Origin: a virus
Lineage: Duplodnaviria > Caudoviricetes
DNA length: 64,000 nt
Reading direction: 5' to 3' (one strand)
Virus record (IMG/VR): IMGVR_UViG_3300021256_000056
Location: 1 to 64,000 of that record
The notes below the pieces were generated by a model, which was not told the origin of the DNA, made no database searches, and saw only the letters and a program-made list of their open reading frames with translations. Position 1 is the first letter of the stretch; every line of letters begins with the position of its first letter. The translations under genes and the position numbers were made by a program. Shown piece after piece: positions 42,102 through 56,907 of this stretch.

Positions 42102-42216
42102 TCGGGGAAGAAGGAATCGAACCTCCGCTAACGGCACCCAAAGCAATTTGACGCTGCTGTTAGTTTTCAATACTGAAAACATTTAAAACGTCGTGCTACC
42201 ACTACACTATTCCCCA
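42102..42216 (-). tRNA. tRNA-Pro(TGG) interrupted by a 44-nt ACAGCAG-helix insert (42145-42188) at position 29/30
   Basis: removing the insert restores ACG|GC-TTTGGGT-GCCGT. Confidence 0.85.
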
Positions 42217-42223
42217 AAATTTG

Positions 42224-42340
42224 TGAGGAGGATGGGACTCGGACCCATGACCCACGGGTTAAAAGCCAAGGTGAGGTTGCTGTTAGTTTTCAGTACAGAA
42301 AACGTTTTATACGTTGCTCTACCAACTGAGCTACCTCCTC
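42224..42340 (-). tRNA. tRNA-Lys(TTT) interrupted by a 44-nt ACAGCAA-helix insert (42268-42311) at position 29/30
   Basis: removing the insert restores ACG|GG-CTTTTAA-CCCGT. Confidence 0.87.
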
Positions 42341-43010: not shown

Positions 43011-43018
43011 ATATTGTG

Positions 43019-43421
43019 TGGAGATGGGCGGACTCGAACCGCCGTTTTTCAAGCTTGCAAACTGCTTTCTACGCGCTTAGTTTTCTTTATGATTCGTTGG
43101 GCACTGGTGGAAAACACACCTGAGTACTCAATATATCATTCTGGAAACGTAGCCAAACCAGACGAATGAAACTGGCCTGCCGCTCTCGATTTGATGATGC
43201 CCTCATATTGTGAATTCAACCAAGACCAAACATTCACGAGGACAATCGTCCCGACACATCCTAGGTGCCGATGGATTAGGCTTATTTGCTTAGCAAATTA
43301 AGCGGCGATTGCATAGGTGTTGTTGCCAACTAATTTTTTTGATATTTGTTTAAAGGCTAAAAATCAAAACGCCTGCGTGCTTACAATCCTCATAGATTGA
43401 AATCAAAACCAAAACATCCCC
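43019..43421 (-). ncRNA. ssrA: tmRNA, tag (A)GNNTYAIAA
   Basis: 5' GGGGATG, 3' GGTTCGAGTCCGCCCATCTCCA with G3:U70; tag ORF GGC AAC AAC ACC TAT GCA ATC GCC GCT TAA. Confidence 0.95.
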
Positions 43422-47952: not shown

Positions 47953-48074
47953 AGCTGATGCAAGGAATCGAACCTCGGTCTGCGGCTTGGAATGCATTTC
48001 TTGATTTTTGCTGTCCGTAACCTTGTCAGAATACCTTATTTGAAAACGCTGTGCTACCACTACACCACATCAGC
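47953..48074 (-). tRNA. tRNA-Gly(TCC) interrupted by a 51-nt ACAGCAA insert (47996-48046) at position 29/30
   Basis: removing the insert restores GCG|GC-ATTCCAA-GCCGC. Confidence 0.83.
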
Positions 48075-51383: not shown

Positions 51384-51453
51384 GAACTGCAAAAGGATTC
51401 GAACCTTTACCCGTGGACTATGCCCGCGTGTCCTGTCCATTAGACGATACAAT
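51384..51453 (-). pseudogene. degenerate tRNA
   Basis: D and T arms intact; loop GCATAGT lacks U33. Confidence 0.55.
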
Positions 51454-51525
51454 TTTTTATCGCAGTAAAGAGGCCACCACTGATTTAACACGGCATCAGC
51501 AATGACAACCACTACGCCACGTGTG

Positions 51526-51778: not shown

Positions 51779-51780
51779 TG

Positions 51781-51857
51781 TCTAGGAGATGAGACTCGAA
51801 CTCACATTATCCTGGCTCCTGACCAGGCAACCTCACATCCAATTGGTTTACTCCTAG
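51781..51857 (-). tRNA. tRNA-Pro(AGG)
   Basis: CCTGG-TCAGGAG-CCAGG; C1:G72, A73; C33. Confidence 0.75.
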
Positions 51858-54137: not shown

Positions 54138-54154
54138 GTTTTTCGTAAATTTTG

Positions 54155-54226
54155 TGCTCCATACAGGAATCGAACCCGTCTAAGAACGTTTTAGGGACGC
54201 CCGCTCGGCCACTGAGCCAATGGAGC
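54155..54226 (-). tRNA. amber suppressor-like tRNA (CTA)
   Basis: GCTCCAT/ATGGAGC-A; GGCGT-CCCTAAA-ACGTT; C33. Confidence 0.75.
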
Positions 54227-54234
54227 AGAAAGAC

Positions 54235-54295
54235 AGGAAACATTAAAATCAACATTATCAGTGTTTATTTGACGAAAGGTTGCTGTGTGTTTCCT
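54235..54295 (-). ncRNA. ACAGCAA-helix RNA with Ile(GAT) anticodon stem-loop
   Basis: AGGAAACA-CACAGCAA...AACA-CTGATAA-TGTT...TGTTTCCT. Confidence 0.78.
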
Positions 54296-54311
54296 TATCT
54301 TAATGTTTCGT

Positions 54312-54602
54312 TTATTGAACCAACTTAAGTCCTTTAAACATTTCACCCGAATCTTCAACCGCAATTGCCGTAAGGCTATTGTTTAAATCGGGCTCGTAGA
54401 ACGCAGAATAAGTCTTATGTTTGTCCCTCAATCTCTGTCTCCATTTCTCAACGTCGGCGTAGAGATATATAAGGTACTCATTATTCCATTGTTGCTGTGG
54501 GTTATCCAAAAGATATTGTGCAACTGCGTGCCCACCTTGAACGCAGGCGTAAACGGGGTTGAGTCGTTTACTCACCAGCACGTACAATCTCTTCGCAGAC
54601 AT
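54312..54602 (-). CDS. peptidyl-tRNA hydrolase PTH2-like protein
   Basis: LYVLVSKRL...VQGGHAV...FYEPDLNNSLTAIA. Confidence 0.7.
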   Translation of the reverse strand: MSAKRLYVLVSKRLNPVYACVQGGHAVAQYLLDNPQQQWNNEYLIYLYADVEKWRQRLRDKHKTYSAFYEPDLNNSLTAIAVEDSGEMFKGLKLVQ

Positions 54603-55023
54603 CGGTATACACTTTAATCGTTTCTTCCCCCCAGTATGTTTTACAATTTTTTTCCTCATAGACTTTTAACTGATAACCATAGGTTTTCAGATAACTATTA
54701 ATCTCATCAGAATAAAGGAACAAGGGGTGTTTTCCTTCGAGGTGGTCAGCCAAGCGATATCCAGTTTGGCGGTAGTAGTCTTCTTTGTTAAGAGGCTTCG
54801 CCTTATTTTCTATCTGCTCAAACTTTCTTCCTCTCATTAACCCATATGCCGCATACATTGCCCTTAGGGTGTCTTTATTACTAGAAACCTTCCAGCAGGC
54901 TTCATACGGTTGCATTGTCCTTTCGGTCTTTAGGTTAACAGTTTTTCTTTGTTCTTTTGCTTTTCTTTGTTCCACCTCCAAGGCGGCGATTTCCTTACGG
55001 AATTCAATAATTTCTTGTTTCAT
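54568..55023 (-). CDS. hypothetical protein
   Basis: LRAMYAAYGLMRGRKFEQIE; directly upstream of the PTH2-like gene. Confidence 0.7.
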   Translation of the reverse strand: MKQEIIEFRKEIAALEVEQRKAKEQRKTVNLKTERTMQPYEACWKVSSNKDTLRAMYAAYGLMRGRKFEQIENKAKPLNKEDYYRQTGYRLADHLEGKHPLFLYSDEINSYLKTYGYQLKVYEEKNCKTYWGEETIKVYTDVCEEIVRAGE

Positions 55024-55093
55024 AATGTTGTTTGGTTTTAATCATTTTATTTTTGGCTCTCGCCGACAAATTCCACTTTCAAATCAAACACCA

Positions 55094-55126
55094 TTAAGGT
55101 GGAACTGGATTAACCTAGTGTTTCAT
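55094..55126 (-). promoter_or_regulatory. leader uORF MKH-amber-VNPVPP-ochre
   Basis: ATG AAA CAC TAG GTT AAT CCA GTT CCA CCT TAA with A-rich leader. Confidence 0.55.
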
Positions 55127-55158
55127 AACGATAATTGTTAAGTTTGTTATTAAAAATA

Positions 55159-55468
55159 AAAAGAACACTACGGTAGGATTACTGATTACCTACAAATACT
55201 CTACAAGCGCGTTATTCAGTCACACCCAAGAAGGTTAGCTACGCCTACTTTTAAAAGGGTGAGGGGAATGCTTACCCCCAAACGGATACAGCCATCAGTC
55301 ACTGTAACTACGATTTGTCCGTTTCTTACGTCACTCTCGGTTGGCCAACCGAGGCTACTTCAACCTTACGCTTCGTGTTGCCCTCTAACCGCCTCCTGAA
55401 CTTTTCAGTCCAGGCTAACGTACCTTATGGGCAGGCTACCCATTGTTCGGTCACAAAGTGTTCTTTTT
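55159..55468 (-). ncRNA. candidate ~300-nt structured RNA
   Basis: terminal pairing AAAAGAACACT/AGTGTTCTTTT, GC-rich hairpins, own promoter, no credible ORF. Confidence 0.55.
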
Positions 55469-55567
55469 ATGATGGGTCGCCCCGCCATAAATTTTCTTTT
55501 TTTTAAAGAGCTTTTACAAAAATACGACCTTTTAATTAAAAAAGCAAGGTCTTTTAATAAAAAAAAC

Positions 55568-55625: not shown

Positions 55626-55646
55626 TGCCTTGCCAGGTCGAGTTTG

Positions 55647-55827
55647 TTGCGGGGGCAGGAATCGAACCTGCGACCTTCAGCTTAGGATTGGTAGGAGGAA
55701 TCGAACCTCCGTTTTCACGTGCCTTACTAGGGCTAGATGTCCTGTACCACTAGACGACACCAATCTGGTTCGTTACAGTGAACCACGCTGTATTGAGGCT
55801 GACGAGCTACCGCTGCTCCACCCCGCA
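55647..55827 (-). tRNA. fMet-like tRNA(CAT) whose anticodon contains a 109-nt insert holding a second tRNA-like gene
   Basis: TCAGC-CTCA|insert 55685-55793|TAA-GCTGA. Confidence 0.8.
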
Positions 55828-55982: not shown

Positions 55983-56090
55983 TTGCGATGGTAGGATTCG
56001 GACCTACGCTCTGAAACGATGTTTCATATCCTTGGCGCCCCAGGAAACACGGGAGTTGCCCCGCTGCTCTGACCACTGAGCTACACCGCA
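55983..56090 (-). ncRNA. tRNA-like RNA with three hairpins replacing the anticodon/variable arm
   Basis: intact acceptor, D and T arms. Confidence 0.65.
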
Positions 56091-56129: not shown

Positions 56130-56830
56130 ATCAGCGTTGTCAAAAGCGCGTGGCCGCTACGCTGATTATAATGTCTAATTAAGCACTATTTTGCCACATT
56201 GGCGTCCATAACCTCCCCTGTAGTGTGATGGACAAACATCACAAAGTCACAGTAACTCAAACAGGTTCCCTCTTGCTACGGCTTACTCTCTCCTTTACCG
56301 CGGGGTCAACGCCATGTCCGCGAGGATTCAGCCTTTACTCATGCACACTCCCGCATCCTACTGATAAACTGCATTACAGTCTCGCTGAGCGGGCCCAGCA
56401 CTAACCAACTACAGAGCACGTGCACATCTCTCATGTTGGTCTGGGAAATAACTCCTCCGATTTCCCGTTGTCAGGTTTCCATCCTAATAAACCCCGCCTA
56501 CTCTATGGGGCAACGAAATACGGCCAGTTACGCATTCATTCCAGAATCCGAGAAGCATTTACGATACACTTCTAAAAACGTTTGAATCATTCGAGCCGAA
56601 AAACTTATTACTTATAGGTTTTATTATATCCTATCGCCCTATAAGATAAAATTCAGCACTTAAAGATAGGATTGCGCCTTAATTCCCCTGTGCAATAATA
56701 CGAGGGTTTAATCCCAACTCGGACTTTTCAAAATGTCTATCCAAGTAGCACTTTTGTTTTCGGGCGTACGAATCGACGTTTTACGAGCATCTTCTGCTCA
56801 CCTTACTTTTCCGACTGCGCGGATTGGATT
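56130..56830 (-). ncRNA. candidate large (~700 nt) structured ncRNA
   Basis: no ORF of 60 aa or more in any frame, hairpin-rich, directly downstream of promoter plus boxA. Confidence 0.55.
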
Positions 56831-56907
56831 TATCTTTCAAAGAACTTTTCTGGATGCAAATATATATGTAATTTTTTAAACTACAAAATATTTTTGCATT
56901 TTTTTTG

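What the first reader, a model, noticed from the sequence alone, without database searches (positions are those of the whole stretch)
54155..55126. Translation-termination module: amber/PP-stop leader, PTH2-like gene and CUA tRNA
Seen, in transcription order: uORF ATG-AAA-CAC-TAG-GTT-AAT-CCA-GTT-CCA-CCT-TAA, a 151-aa protein, a PTH2-like protein, an Ile ACAGCAA RNA, and a tRNA with CTA anticodon. Known: Pro-Pro-stop stalls ribosomes at termination, and PTH recycles peptidyl-tRNA. Inference: amber readthrough moves the ribosome onto a stall site, so the leader could sense RF1 or suppressor activity and control the downstream genes.
Basis: partly seen in the sequence, partly recalled or inferred. 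Interest (0 to 1): 0.72.

Follow-up and report, generated by a model that had tools for sequence, protein, structure and literature searches.

The report
Amber-gated stalling leader before suppressor tRNA
A giant rumen phage has a tiny leader gene whose ribosome-stalling Pro-Pro-stop end is reached only if a UAG stop is read through by the phage's own UAG-reading tRNA; the stalled ribosome would then uncover the start of two downstream genes, which looks like a natural, apparently unpublished sensor of stop-codon readthrough.

Summary
On the minus strand lie a mini-ORF (55126-55094, M-K-H-UAG-V-N-P-V-P-P-UAA), a 151-aa gene, an overlapping 96-aa gene with a confident PTH2 fold, and tRNA(CUA). 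Only the 'Ile ACAGCAA RNA' is not confirmed. The window is a Lak-like rumen megaphage fragment that reads in standard code.

The leader is not chance. I collected 32 leaders (IMG/VR, metagenome, MAG bins, Lak phages; 16 protein clusters at 60% identity). Most keep M-x(1-5)-gate stop-(V/I)-x(2-6)-[R]-(P/G/S)-P-UAA just upstream of the 151-aa-family gene. All four Pro codons and both Arg codon families are used. Elsewhere the pattern occurs about once per 400 kb.

The gate is UAG beside tRNA(CUA) and UAA in two Lak phages whose module tRNA is UUA. Folding predicts that a ribosome held at the second stop, not the first, unpairs the downstream start site (+0.32 against +0.04 for shuffled spacers; window +0.52). 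Where the PTH2-like gene is not coupled to the gated gene, it begins M-K-UAG itself.

This scan noted the same design before on other genomes. I found no publication. What the two proteins do remains open.

The parts
55094..55126 (-). Leader mini-ORF M-K-H-UAG-V-N-P-V-P-P-UAA
   Evidence: Read directly. Homologous leaders occur in 31 other loci. Background rate is about 1 per 400 kb.
55115..55117 (-). Gate codon UAG (codon 4), followed by G
   Evidence: The gate is TAG in all 30 leaders that lie beside a tRNA(CUA), or in loci where no tRNA was found, and TAA in the 2 Lak leaders beside a tRNA(UUA).
55094..55102 (-). CCA CCU UAA: Pro-Pro-stop, the proposed stall site
   Evidence: Of the 25 leaders with at most 12 codons after the gate, the last sense codon is Pro in 23, using CCT, CCA, CCG and CCC. 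The terminal stop is TAA in 25 of the 28 leaders, TGA in 2 and TAG in 1 (a two-gate leader).
55079..55096 (-). 5' arm of the leader hairpin; it begins with the UAA of the mini-ORF
   Evidence: MFE structure of 55140-55021. A mask at this position raises the unpaired probability of the start site from 0.32 to 0.84. 0 of 20 spacer shuffles reach the observed gain.
55023..55041 (-). 3' arm of the hairpin; it ends on the A of the AUG of the 151-aa gene
   Evidence: The leader from the UAA to the AUG is about 97% identical to L032, against roughly 80% (estimated by eye) for the coding sequence.
54568..55023 (-). 151-aa gene of an unnamed family (motif LRxMYAAYGxxRGKxFSQIE), the gene directly behind the leader
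   Evidence: Alignment A5. 1577 cluster representatives at E<=0.001. No Pfam or PHROG family. Model pLDDT 92.9 with no informative structural match.
54312..54602 (-). 96-aa PTH2-fold gene; its start overlaps the end of the 151-aa gene by 35 nt
   Evidence: phrog_3668 'hydrolase' at 8e-9. Model pLDDT 92.6. The top Foldseek hits 2gax, 2zv3, 3erj, 1q7s and 1xty have TM 0.68-0.72. 5 of 36 relatives hit Pfam PF01981.
54227..54311 (-).
   Evidence: No tRNA is predicted here. The stem is kept in L032 and L040. No minus-strand terminator-like site lies between the leader and the tRNA.
54154..54226 (-). Suppressor tRNA, anticodon CUA, anticodon loop CCCUAAA (C33)
   Evidence: ARAGORN; Rfam tRNA 46.2 bits. 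It is the only suppressor among the 35 tRNAs of the contig.

Best explanation
The stretch is one operon of a Lak-like megaphage: leader mini-ORF, 151-aa gene, overlapping PTH2-fold gene, then tRNA(CUA). The leader works as a translational switch that reports whether UAG is being read as sense. Without active suppressor tRNA, ribosomes end at the UAG (codon 4), 19 nt before the hairpin. The hairpin, which pairs the UAA region with the AUG region of the 151-aa gene, stays closed. With charged tRNA(CUA) outcompeting RF1, ribosomes read on for six codons to Pro-Pro-UAA. Release after C-terminal Pro-Pro is slow, which is established for E. coli and inferred here. The waiting ribosome covers the 5' arm, so the start site of the 151-aa gene is freed, and the PTH2-like gene is translated by coupling. 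Shown: the anatomy, its conservation at the peptide level, the match between gate codon and anticodon, and the predicted structural effect. Inferred: translation of the leader, the stall, the direction of control, and the roles of the proteins. My leading guess for the proteins is that they handle consequences of suppression, such as recycling peptidyl-tRNA. This is the weakest step.
For: The leader is conserved. 28 leaders are tabulated and 4 more come from an independent collection. In one search the last codon is Pro in 23 of the 25 short leaders, with all four Pro codons. The codon before it is Pro in 18, Gly in 3 and Ser in 2. The third-last codon is Arg in 15, spread over AGA, AGG, CGA, CGC and CGT. 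The 25 aligned 151-aa-family proteins fall into 16 clusters at 60% identity.

Position is specific: all 19 strict-pattern hits in related loci sit at the leader position, against a background of 2 per 390 kb.

The gate matches the tRNA: TAG beside tRNA(CUA), and TAA in Lak-B5 and Lak-A1, where the only tRNA within 4 kb is Sup(UUA).

The three parts travel together despite shuffled gene order. A PTH2-like gene is present in 33 of 34 loci found with the 151-aa family, and a tRNA(CUA) in 28. The converse holds from the PTH2 side.

Where the PTH2-like gene is not behind the gated gene, it starts M-K-TAG-(V/I) itself (18 lineages).

Structure prediction agrees. Mean unpaired probability of the start site is 0.37 free, 0.36 with a ribosome at the gate and 0.64 with a ribosome at the second stop. 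The gain is +0.32 against +0.04 with shuffled spacers, Wilcoxon p=1.3e-5, and +0.52 against -0.01 for the window.

No minus-strand terminator lies inside the operon. Contigs from RNA libraries cover 54306-55135.

Established knowledge: RAPP/RGPP arrest cores (PMC10951233, PMC12992588), and stalling at termination after C-terminal Pro (Hayes et al. 2002 and TnaC, from my own knowledge).
Against: There is no experiment. The window's hairpin is AU-rich and no more stable than shuffled sequence (z -0.12; z +0.21). It shows no compensatory change against L032.

The window's clade has V-P-P or A-P-P, not the R-x-P core, so its stall may be weak. A 10-residue peptide cannot reach far into the exit tunnel.

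The transcription start is unknown. RNA and DNA contigs both break at 55134/55135, so that break says nothing about it.

The leaders are related by descent, so the counts overstate independence. Six of 21 leaders show little predicted opening.

In Lak-B5 the gate and the terminal stop are both UAA.

The contig shows no other amber-containing gene, so what the suppressor is for is unexplained.
Confidence: 0.7

Rival explanations
1. Same amber-gated stall, but the output is transcription, as in tnaC. The ribosome parked at Pro-Pro-UAA blocks Rho or an attenuator, so RNA polymerase reads on into the 151-aa gene, the PTH2-like gene and the tRNA(CUA) itself. That would give positive feedback on the suppressor.
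For: TnaC also stalls with peptidyl-tRNA(Pro) in the P site and a stop codon in the A site (own knowledge). A synthetic UAG-in-leader transcriptional switch works (Liu et al. 2011, cited in PMC6412442). In many loci the tRNA(CUA) lies 25-160 nt behind the gated gene.
Against: The pairing between the region after the second stop and the downstream start site is specific and beats shuffled controls. The spacer is AU-rich rather than C-rich. No terminator-like hairpin with a U run follows the leader. The two modes could coexist.
Confidence: 0.15
2. The leader mainly reads host RF1 capacity rather than the phage tRNA. For example, it might detect RF1 depletion or inhibition during infection.
For: Readthrough at UAG is a competition between RF1 and tRNA(CUA), so the leader cannot tell the two apart (inference).
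Against: The gate codon changes to UAA exactly where the neighbouring tRNA is UUA. UAA is read by both RF1 and RF2. The tRNA is physically linked to the leader in 28 of 34 loci found with the 151-aa family.
Confidence: 0.08
3. The conserved letters are an RNA or DNA motif (promoter, processing site) or a chance ORF, and are not translated.
For: The leader region is about 97% identical to L032 at the nucleotide level. The leader follows directly after a ROOL-like RNA.
Against: Across lineages only the reading frame and the amino acids are kept. All four Pro codons and two Arg codon families are used, codon numbers vary but stay in frame, and the stops are kept. The background rate is about 1 per 400 kb.
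Confidence: 0.04
4. Inverse logic: readthrough and stalling repress the downstream genes, through ribosome queuing or mRNA cleavage at the stall. That would give negative feedback on suppression.
For: Stalled ribosomes can trigger mRNA cleavage and tmRNA action, and the phage carries a tmRNA. AMD1-type readthrough-then-stall is repressive (own knowledge).
Against: The second stop lies 55-147 nt before the start codon in most leaders, too far to occlude it. Masking the second stop opens the start site rather than closing it.
Confidence: 0.03

Closest known systems
RAPP/RGPP-type arrest peptides (ApdA, ApdP, ApcA; SecM RAGP) (PMC7897499, PMC10951233, PMC12992588)
   Same: Both are small upstream ORFs ending in an R-x-P core next to the A site, placed so that the stalled ribosome remodels mRNA structure and exposes the next gene's start. 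Relatives carry R-P-P-stop, R-G-P-stop, R-S-P-stop or a full R-G-P-P (L010, L072), with Arg three residues before the A-site position, as in RAPP.
   Different: Here the motif lies behind an in-frame stop codon and can be reached only by suppression. Most members stall at a stop codon rather than at Pro-tRNA. The peptides are 8-13 residues and have no secretion signal. The quantity sensed is stop-codon readthrough, not protein export. The window itself has V-P-P, without Arg.
TnaC leader of the tna operon
   Same: Both are regulatory leader peptides that stall at termination with peptidyl-tRNA(Pro) in the P site and a stop codon in the A site.
   Different: TnaC needs free tryptophan and a 24-residue peptide, and it acts through Rho. 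There is no gate codon.
prfB (RF2) autoregulatory in-frame UGA
   Same: Both use an early in-frame stop codon as a gauge of the balance between termination and an alternative decoding event.
   Different: In prfB the alternative event is a +1 frameshift within the gene itself. There is no suppressor tRNA, no arrest peptide and no hairpin switch.
erm/cat leader-peptide translational attenuation
   Same: In both, a ribosome paused in a short leader opens a hairpin that hides the start site of the next gene.
   Different: In erm/cat the pause is drug-induced. Here it is conditional on reading through a stop.
Phage 'code-change modules' (suppressor tRNA + aaRS + release factor; Borges et al., bioRxiv 10.1101/2021.08.26.457843)
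   Same: Both are standard-code gene clusters in large gut phages built around a suppressor tRNA with translation-related partners.
   Different: The partners here are a PTH2-fold protein and an unnamed 100-150-aa protein. That paper mentions no peptidyl-tRNA hydrolase and, in the passages I searched, no leader switch.
Synthetic UAG-containing leader switches (Liu, Qi, Yanofsky and Arkin 2011, as reviewed in PMC6412442)
   Same: In both, a UAG placed in a regulatory leader peptide makes downstream expression depend on amber suppression.
   Different: Those were engineered from tnaC and trp leaders and have a transcriptional output. The present element is natural and widespread.

Membership tests
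PTH2 peptidyl-tRNA hydrolase (PF01981) | PTH2 alpha/beta fold | tested here: met
   Model pLDDT 92.6. The 13 best-ranked listed PDB matches are all PTH2 or DUF2000 structures, with TM 0.57-0.72 and probability 1.00.
PTH2 peptidyl-tRNA hydrolase (PF01981) | Sequence match to the Pfam model at its gathering score | tested here: not met
   The window protein gives no PF01981 hit. 5 of 36 relatives hit it, best E 6.6e-5. The profile against PDB sequences finds only Pth2 chains, at E 0.58 and 1.9.
PTH2 peptidyl-tRNA hydrolase (PF01981) | Conserved Q-x-x-H-A helix motif and catalytic Lys/Asp | tested here: inconclusive
   QGGHA aligns with AQGGHA of M. jannaschii Pth2. Q22, H25, A26, E70, P71, D72 and L73 are invariant. 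The Lys of the GKGK loop has no conserved counterpart in the short form. Whether D72 is equivalent to the catalytic Asp was not aligned residue by residue.
PTH2 peptidyl-tRNA hydrolase (PF01981) | Hydrolysis of peptidyl- or N-acyl-aminoacyl-tRNA | not testable with these tools
   Needs an enzyme assay or complementation of pth(ts).
RAPP-like arrest peptide | R-(A/G)-P-P core at the C-terminal end | tested here: not met
   The window has V-P-P-stop and L032 has A-P-P-stop. Relatives have R-P-P-stop (12 leaders), R-G-P-stop, R-S-P-stop or R-G-P-P.
RAPP-like arrest peptide | Upstream ORF whose stall site abuts a structure hiding the next gene's start | tested here: met
   By prediction only.
RAPP-like arrest peptide | Demonstrated ribosome arrest | not testable with these tools
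   Needs toeprinting or peptidyl-tRNA detection.
Amber suppressor tRNA | Cloverleaf with anticodon CUA | tested here: met
   ARAGORN; Infernal tRNA 46.2 bits against a gathering score of 29.
Amber suppressor tRNA | Canonical U33 and a known amino-acid identity | tested here: not met
   The anticodon loop is CCCUAAA, so position 33 is C. The tRNA has G1-C72 and A73, unlike the phage's tRNA-Gln. Its nearest phage tRNAs are Cys, Lys and Arg at 0.67-0.70 identity. The charged amino acid is unknown.
TAG-recoded (code 15) phage | In-frame TAG in many genes | tested here: not met
   Standard code gives 91% ORF coverage of the 195-kb contig. TAG ends 23 of 156 long ORFs. The one candidate split gene I tested with Pfam is two separate genes. 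There is no excess of amber-gated starts. The contig may be only part of the genome.

The most novel reading that the evidence does not exclude
The module is a self-checking commitment switch for a change of genetic code. The leader measures suppressor tRNA against RF1. Its two gated products are the effectors that reinforce the new decoding state or make it tolerable. For example, the unnamed helical-hairpin protein might act on RF1 or on the suppressor tRNA, and the PTH2-fold protein might act as a dedicated recycler of suppressor or dropped-off peptidyl-tRNAs. Once suppression starts, it would then lock in.
Probability: 0.25. Interest if true: 0.9.

Novelty: new variant of a known kind. Interest (0 to 1): 0.8.

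Why it matters
Leader-peptide switches are known to sense amino acids, antibiotics and protein export. None is known to sense whether a stop codon is being read as sense. Such a switch would show how phages that carry suppressor tRNAs time or check a change in decoding inside a standard-code host, which is an open question in work on stop-codon recoding in gut phages. It ties two uncharacterised but widespread protein families to that process: the 151-aa family has 1577 cluster representatives, and there is also a miniature PTH2-fold family. It offers a compact natural part, about 100 nt, for reporting amber suppression. It also makes the biology directly testable with simple reporter fusions.

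Tried and rejected
1. My first conservation test used a fixed-spacing pattern and found nothing in 31 loci. That was a false negative caused by variable codon numbers. Variable-length scans reversed it.

2. tblastn and the search for related loci with the single 151-aa protein found no relatives in phage records or IMG/VR. Only the family alignment did.

3. Exact-pattern scans of viral contigs for the leader and for the upstream ncRNA core found nothing.

5. Complex prediction of the 151-aa protein with the PTH2-like protein returned no answer. This says nothing either way.

6. For the 151-aa model, Foldseek gave no match with E<=0.001. VIA-align wide gave only generic antiparallel helical hairpins, Z<=8.1, over residues 1-66. 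The protein atlas gave no usable hit.

7. Read laying: all runs are contigs, so no start, strand or level can be read. The contig ends at 55135 (RNA) and 55134 (DNA) coincide, so they are no hint of a transcription start. Runs X3 and X4 give identical numbers and are probably one data set.

8. The sigma-70 promoter scan does not apply to Bacteroidota. I found no clean TTTG/TAnnTTTG promoter by eye.

9. I considered an RNase P-like reading of the upstream ncRNA and dropped it. No RNase P family appears even at E<=10, whereas ROOL and manA do.

10. I checked the idea that TAG splits genes in this contig. It is not supported.
Full report
**What the window is.** The window carries 36 tRNA/tmRNA genes on the minus strand between 38 and 57 kb, including a tmRNA. 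Its only DNA matches among 50,697 phage records are Prevotella Lak megaphages and two uncultured huge phages. Its contig is 195 kb. Near-identical DNA occurs in bovine, goat and sheep gut runs.

Under the standard code, stop-to-stop ORFs of 100 aa or more cover 91% of the contig. TAG ends 23 of 156 long ORFs. The one candidate TAG-split gene that I tested with Pfam is two separate genes. Amber-gated gene starts are not enriched. So this fragment, unlike classical Lak phages, reads as standard code, yet it has one suppressor tRNA(CUA) among its 35 tRNAs.

**The observation.** On the minus strand, in order:
- The mini-ORF ATG AAA CAC TAG GTT AAT CCA GTT CCA CCT TAA at 55126-55094.
- A 151-aa ORF at 55023-54568.
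- A 96-aa ORF at 54602-54312, whose ATG lies inside the end of the previous ORF.
- An 85-nt spacer.
- tRNA(CUA) at 54226-54154.

The 96-aa protein has no Pfam hit of its own but matches phrog_3668 'hydrolase'. With an alignment of 36 relatives it folds at pLDDT 92.6. Its best PDB matches are all PTH2 or DUF2000 structures (2gax, 2zv3, 3erj, 1q7s, 1xty; TM 0.68-0.72). Five relatives hit Pfam PTH2 directly. A profile search of PDB sequences returns only Pth2 chains, aligned over the shared QGGHA helix. 'PTH2-like' is therefore right at the level of fold. Catalytic competence is open, because the lysine of the GKGK loop is not kept.

The 'Ile ACAGCAA RNA' is not a tRNA by ARAGORN or Infernal. Those letters lie in a spacer bracketed by a conserved GGAAAC/GUUUCC stem.

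**The three parts travel together.** Relatives of the PTH2-like protein of the short form (85-105 aa) lie next to a tRNA(CUA) on the same strand in IMG/VR loci of 37-70% identity. In several of these it is the only tRNA within 3 kb. A longer form (130-250 aa) shows no such link.

The 151-aa protein at first seemed an orphan, with one 77% relative in a metagenome (L032). Reading the DNA upstream of PTH2-like genes showed diverged homologues. An alignment of these (A4) then retrieved 34 IMG/VR loci. Of those 34 loci, 33 hold a PTH2-like gene and 28 hold a tRNA(CUA), all on the same strand. Gene order varies:
- Order A: leader, 151-aa gene, PTH2-like gene, tRNA. The window has this order.
- Order B: PTH2-like gene, leader, 151-aa gene, tRNA.
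- Order C: tRNA, PTH2-like gene, leader, 151-aa gene.

The 151-aa family has 1577 cluster representatives at E<=0.001 in a library of 1.84 billion. It has no Pfam or PHROG family. Among 185,579 prokaryote species genomes it occurs only in five MAG contigs of scattered taxonomy, which are probably mis-binned phage.

**The leader is conserved as a peptide.** Directly upstream of nearly every 151-aa-family gene (55-147 nt in most) is a mini-ORF of the same design. It runs ATG, 1-5 further codons, a stop, then a codon for Val or Ile in most leaders, 2-6 more codons, and an end such as R-P-P-TAA. Examples are MKH*VNRPP*, MRHL*MTTRPP*, MKDT*FTARPP*, MKTSHW*INNRPP*, MK*ISKSRGP* and MTH*IRSP*.

Among the 25 short leaders:
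- The last sense codon is Pro in 23 (CCT 9, CCA 7, CCG 5, CCC 2).
- The codon before it is Pro in 18, Gly in 3 and Ser in 2.
- The third-last codon is Arg in 15, spread over AGA, AGG, CGA, CGC and CGT.

The terminal stop is TAA in 25 of 28 leaders. It is TAG only in one leader that has two gates. Synonymous variation at fixed amino acids, in-frame length changes and kept stops are the marks of a translated peptide, not of an RNA motif.

The strict pattern occurs twice in 390 kb of the window's own contig, one of them being the finding, and never with TAA or TGA as the first stop. In related loci all 19 hits sit at the leader position.

As an out-of-sample test, all four genome-collection loci with enough upstream DNA carry such a leader (MNEP*MLVRPP*, MKDK*INIRPP*, MKHL*MTTRPP*, MKDT*IKIRSP*) and a tRNA(CUA).

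The window's clade (window, L032, L040) ends V-P-P or A-P-P, without the Arg. L010 and L072 have a full R-G-P-P followed by more codons. L003 and Lak-A1 have R-G-S-P followed by more codons. L002 looks decayed: a TGA interrupts the leader and the 151-aa homologue is frameshifted.

**The gate codon follows the tRNA.** In Lak-B5 and Lak-A1 the only tRNA within 4 kb of the PTH2-like gene is a suppressor with anticodon UUA. Their leaders read MELQHW-TAA-VTCDRGP-TAA and MKLQHW-TAA-VTLSRGSP.... So the gate is TAA where the tRNA reads UAA, and TAG in the 30 leaders that lie beside a CUA tRNA or in loci where no tRNA was found. Earlier notes of this scan suggested this test. I carried it out here on two Lak lineages.

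**The PTH2-like gene is gated either way.** In orders B and C the PTH2-like ORF itself begins M-K-TAG-(V/I)-..., with the conserved first strand following the TAG (18 lineages). Others carry a TAG in mid-gene (L006, L007, L049, L072, L073). In order A, as in the window, it has no TAG, but its start lies inside the end of the leader-controlled gene. Both proteins are thus made only when the stop is read through.

**How the switch would work.** In the window the minimum-energy fold pairs 55096-55079 with 55041-55023. The first segment begins with the UAA of the mini-ORF. The second ends on the A of the AUG of the 151-aa gene.

I modelled a ribosome as 27 unpaired nucleotides around the A-site codon. 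Over 22 leaders, the start region (-18 to +6) is unpaired with mean probability 0.37 when free, 0.36 with the ribosome at the gate stop, and 0.64 with it at the second stop. The gain is +0.32 against +0.04 when the spacer is shuffled (21 leaders, Wilcoxon p=1.3e-5). For the window it is +0.52 against -0.01, with 0 of 20 shuffles reaching it.

Some relatives have very strong hairpins. In L010, 17 bp hide a GGAGG, with z=-6.9. The window's hairpin is weak and AU-rich (z about 0). That is the main caveat for this particular locus.

Slow release after C-terminal Pro-Pro, and arrest by R-x-P cores, are established for model bacteria (PMC10951233, PMC12992588; Hayes 2002 and TnaC from my own knowledge). 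Arg sits three residues before the A-site position, as in RAPP.

No minus-strand terminator-like site lies between the leader and the tRNA. Contigs from RNA libraries cover 54306-55135, but they cannot show transcript ends or translation.

**What remains open.**
- The direction and level of control. A tnaC-like transcriptional output would feed back on the tRNA itself.
- The amino acid carried by the tRNA. It has G1-C72, A73 and C33, and is not like the phage's tRNA-Gln.
- What the suppressor is for in a standard-code contig.
- What the two proteins do. The 151-aa model (pLDDT 92.9) is a long helical hairpin plus a small mixed domain, with no informative structural match.

**Novelty.** Full-text searches combining suppressor tRNA, arrest or leader peptide, readthrough, phage and Pth2 found no description. 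The main survey of recoded phages describes a tRNA + aaRS + RF module and does not mention a peptidyl-tRNA hydrolase. A synthetic analogue exists, with UAG placed in tnaC and trp leaders. Earlier agents of this scan reported the same design on eight other genomes. Those are unchecked AI notes, not independent evidence. What this window adds is a rumen Lak-like member with a termination-type V-P-P-UAA leader whose stop codon pairs with the next gene's start codon, and the UAA/UUA match in Lak phages.

Noticed in passing
window 55152-55520 (-): A structured ncRNA of about 300-370 nt lies directly 5' of the leader. It is conserved in L032, L040, Lak-A1, Lak-B1 and LR756501, inside their tRNA arrays. 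It gives weak hits to ROOL (26 bits, E 0.002, gathering score 99) and manA (19.9 bits) and shares the 3' motif GUGACUGAAUAA...GUAGGUAAUCAGUAAUCCUACC followed by a U run. RNA-library contigs cover 55166-55462 at depth about 200, against 7.8 for the operon; the DNA ratio is only 2-3 fold. It is probably a miniature ROOL/manA-like phage RNA.
   Followed up: partly
window 55646-55827 (-): A tRNA whose anticodon loop is interrupted by a 109-nt insert that itself contains a complete tRNA-Thr(AGU) (55685-55764). By eye the outer tRNA looks like an initiator-type tRNA(CAU).
   Followed up: partly
window 42102-42216, 42224-42340, 47953-48074, 55983-56090 (-): Four more tRNAs of 108-122 nt with inserts of 10-44 nt. 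Infernal finds them, and ARAGORN finds them only in intron mode.
   Followed up: no
window 54154-54226 (-); also L001, L010, L032: The suppressor tRNA has C at position 33 (loop CCCUAAA) instead of the near-universal U33. Other lineages of the module have U33.
   Followed up: no
window 43018-43421 (-): A phage-encoded tmRNA (tag GNNTYAIAA) lies within the tRNA array. This may be relevant if suppression produces ribosomes that run off message ends.
   Followed up: no
window 56180-56900 (-): About 700 nt have no long ORF and no Rfam hit, between tRNAs. The stretch looks structured by eye.
   Followed up: no
window 51384-51454, 51780-51857, 55685-55764 (-): tRNAs with A at the first anticodon position: Tyr(AUA), Pro(AGG) and Thr(AGU). 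This is unusual, especially for Tyr.
   Followed up: no
L002:2608-3023: An apparently decaying copy of the module. A TGA interrupts the leader before its S-P-TAA end, and the 151-aa homologue is split by a frameshift.
   Followed up: partly
L066/L067:1549-2489; L062: The amber/R-P-P leader sits right after the PTH2-like gene but is followed by an extra ORF of about 300 aa or less before the 151-aa-family gene.
   Followed up: no
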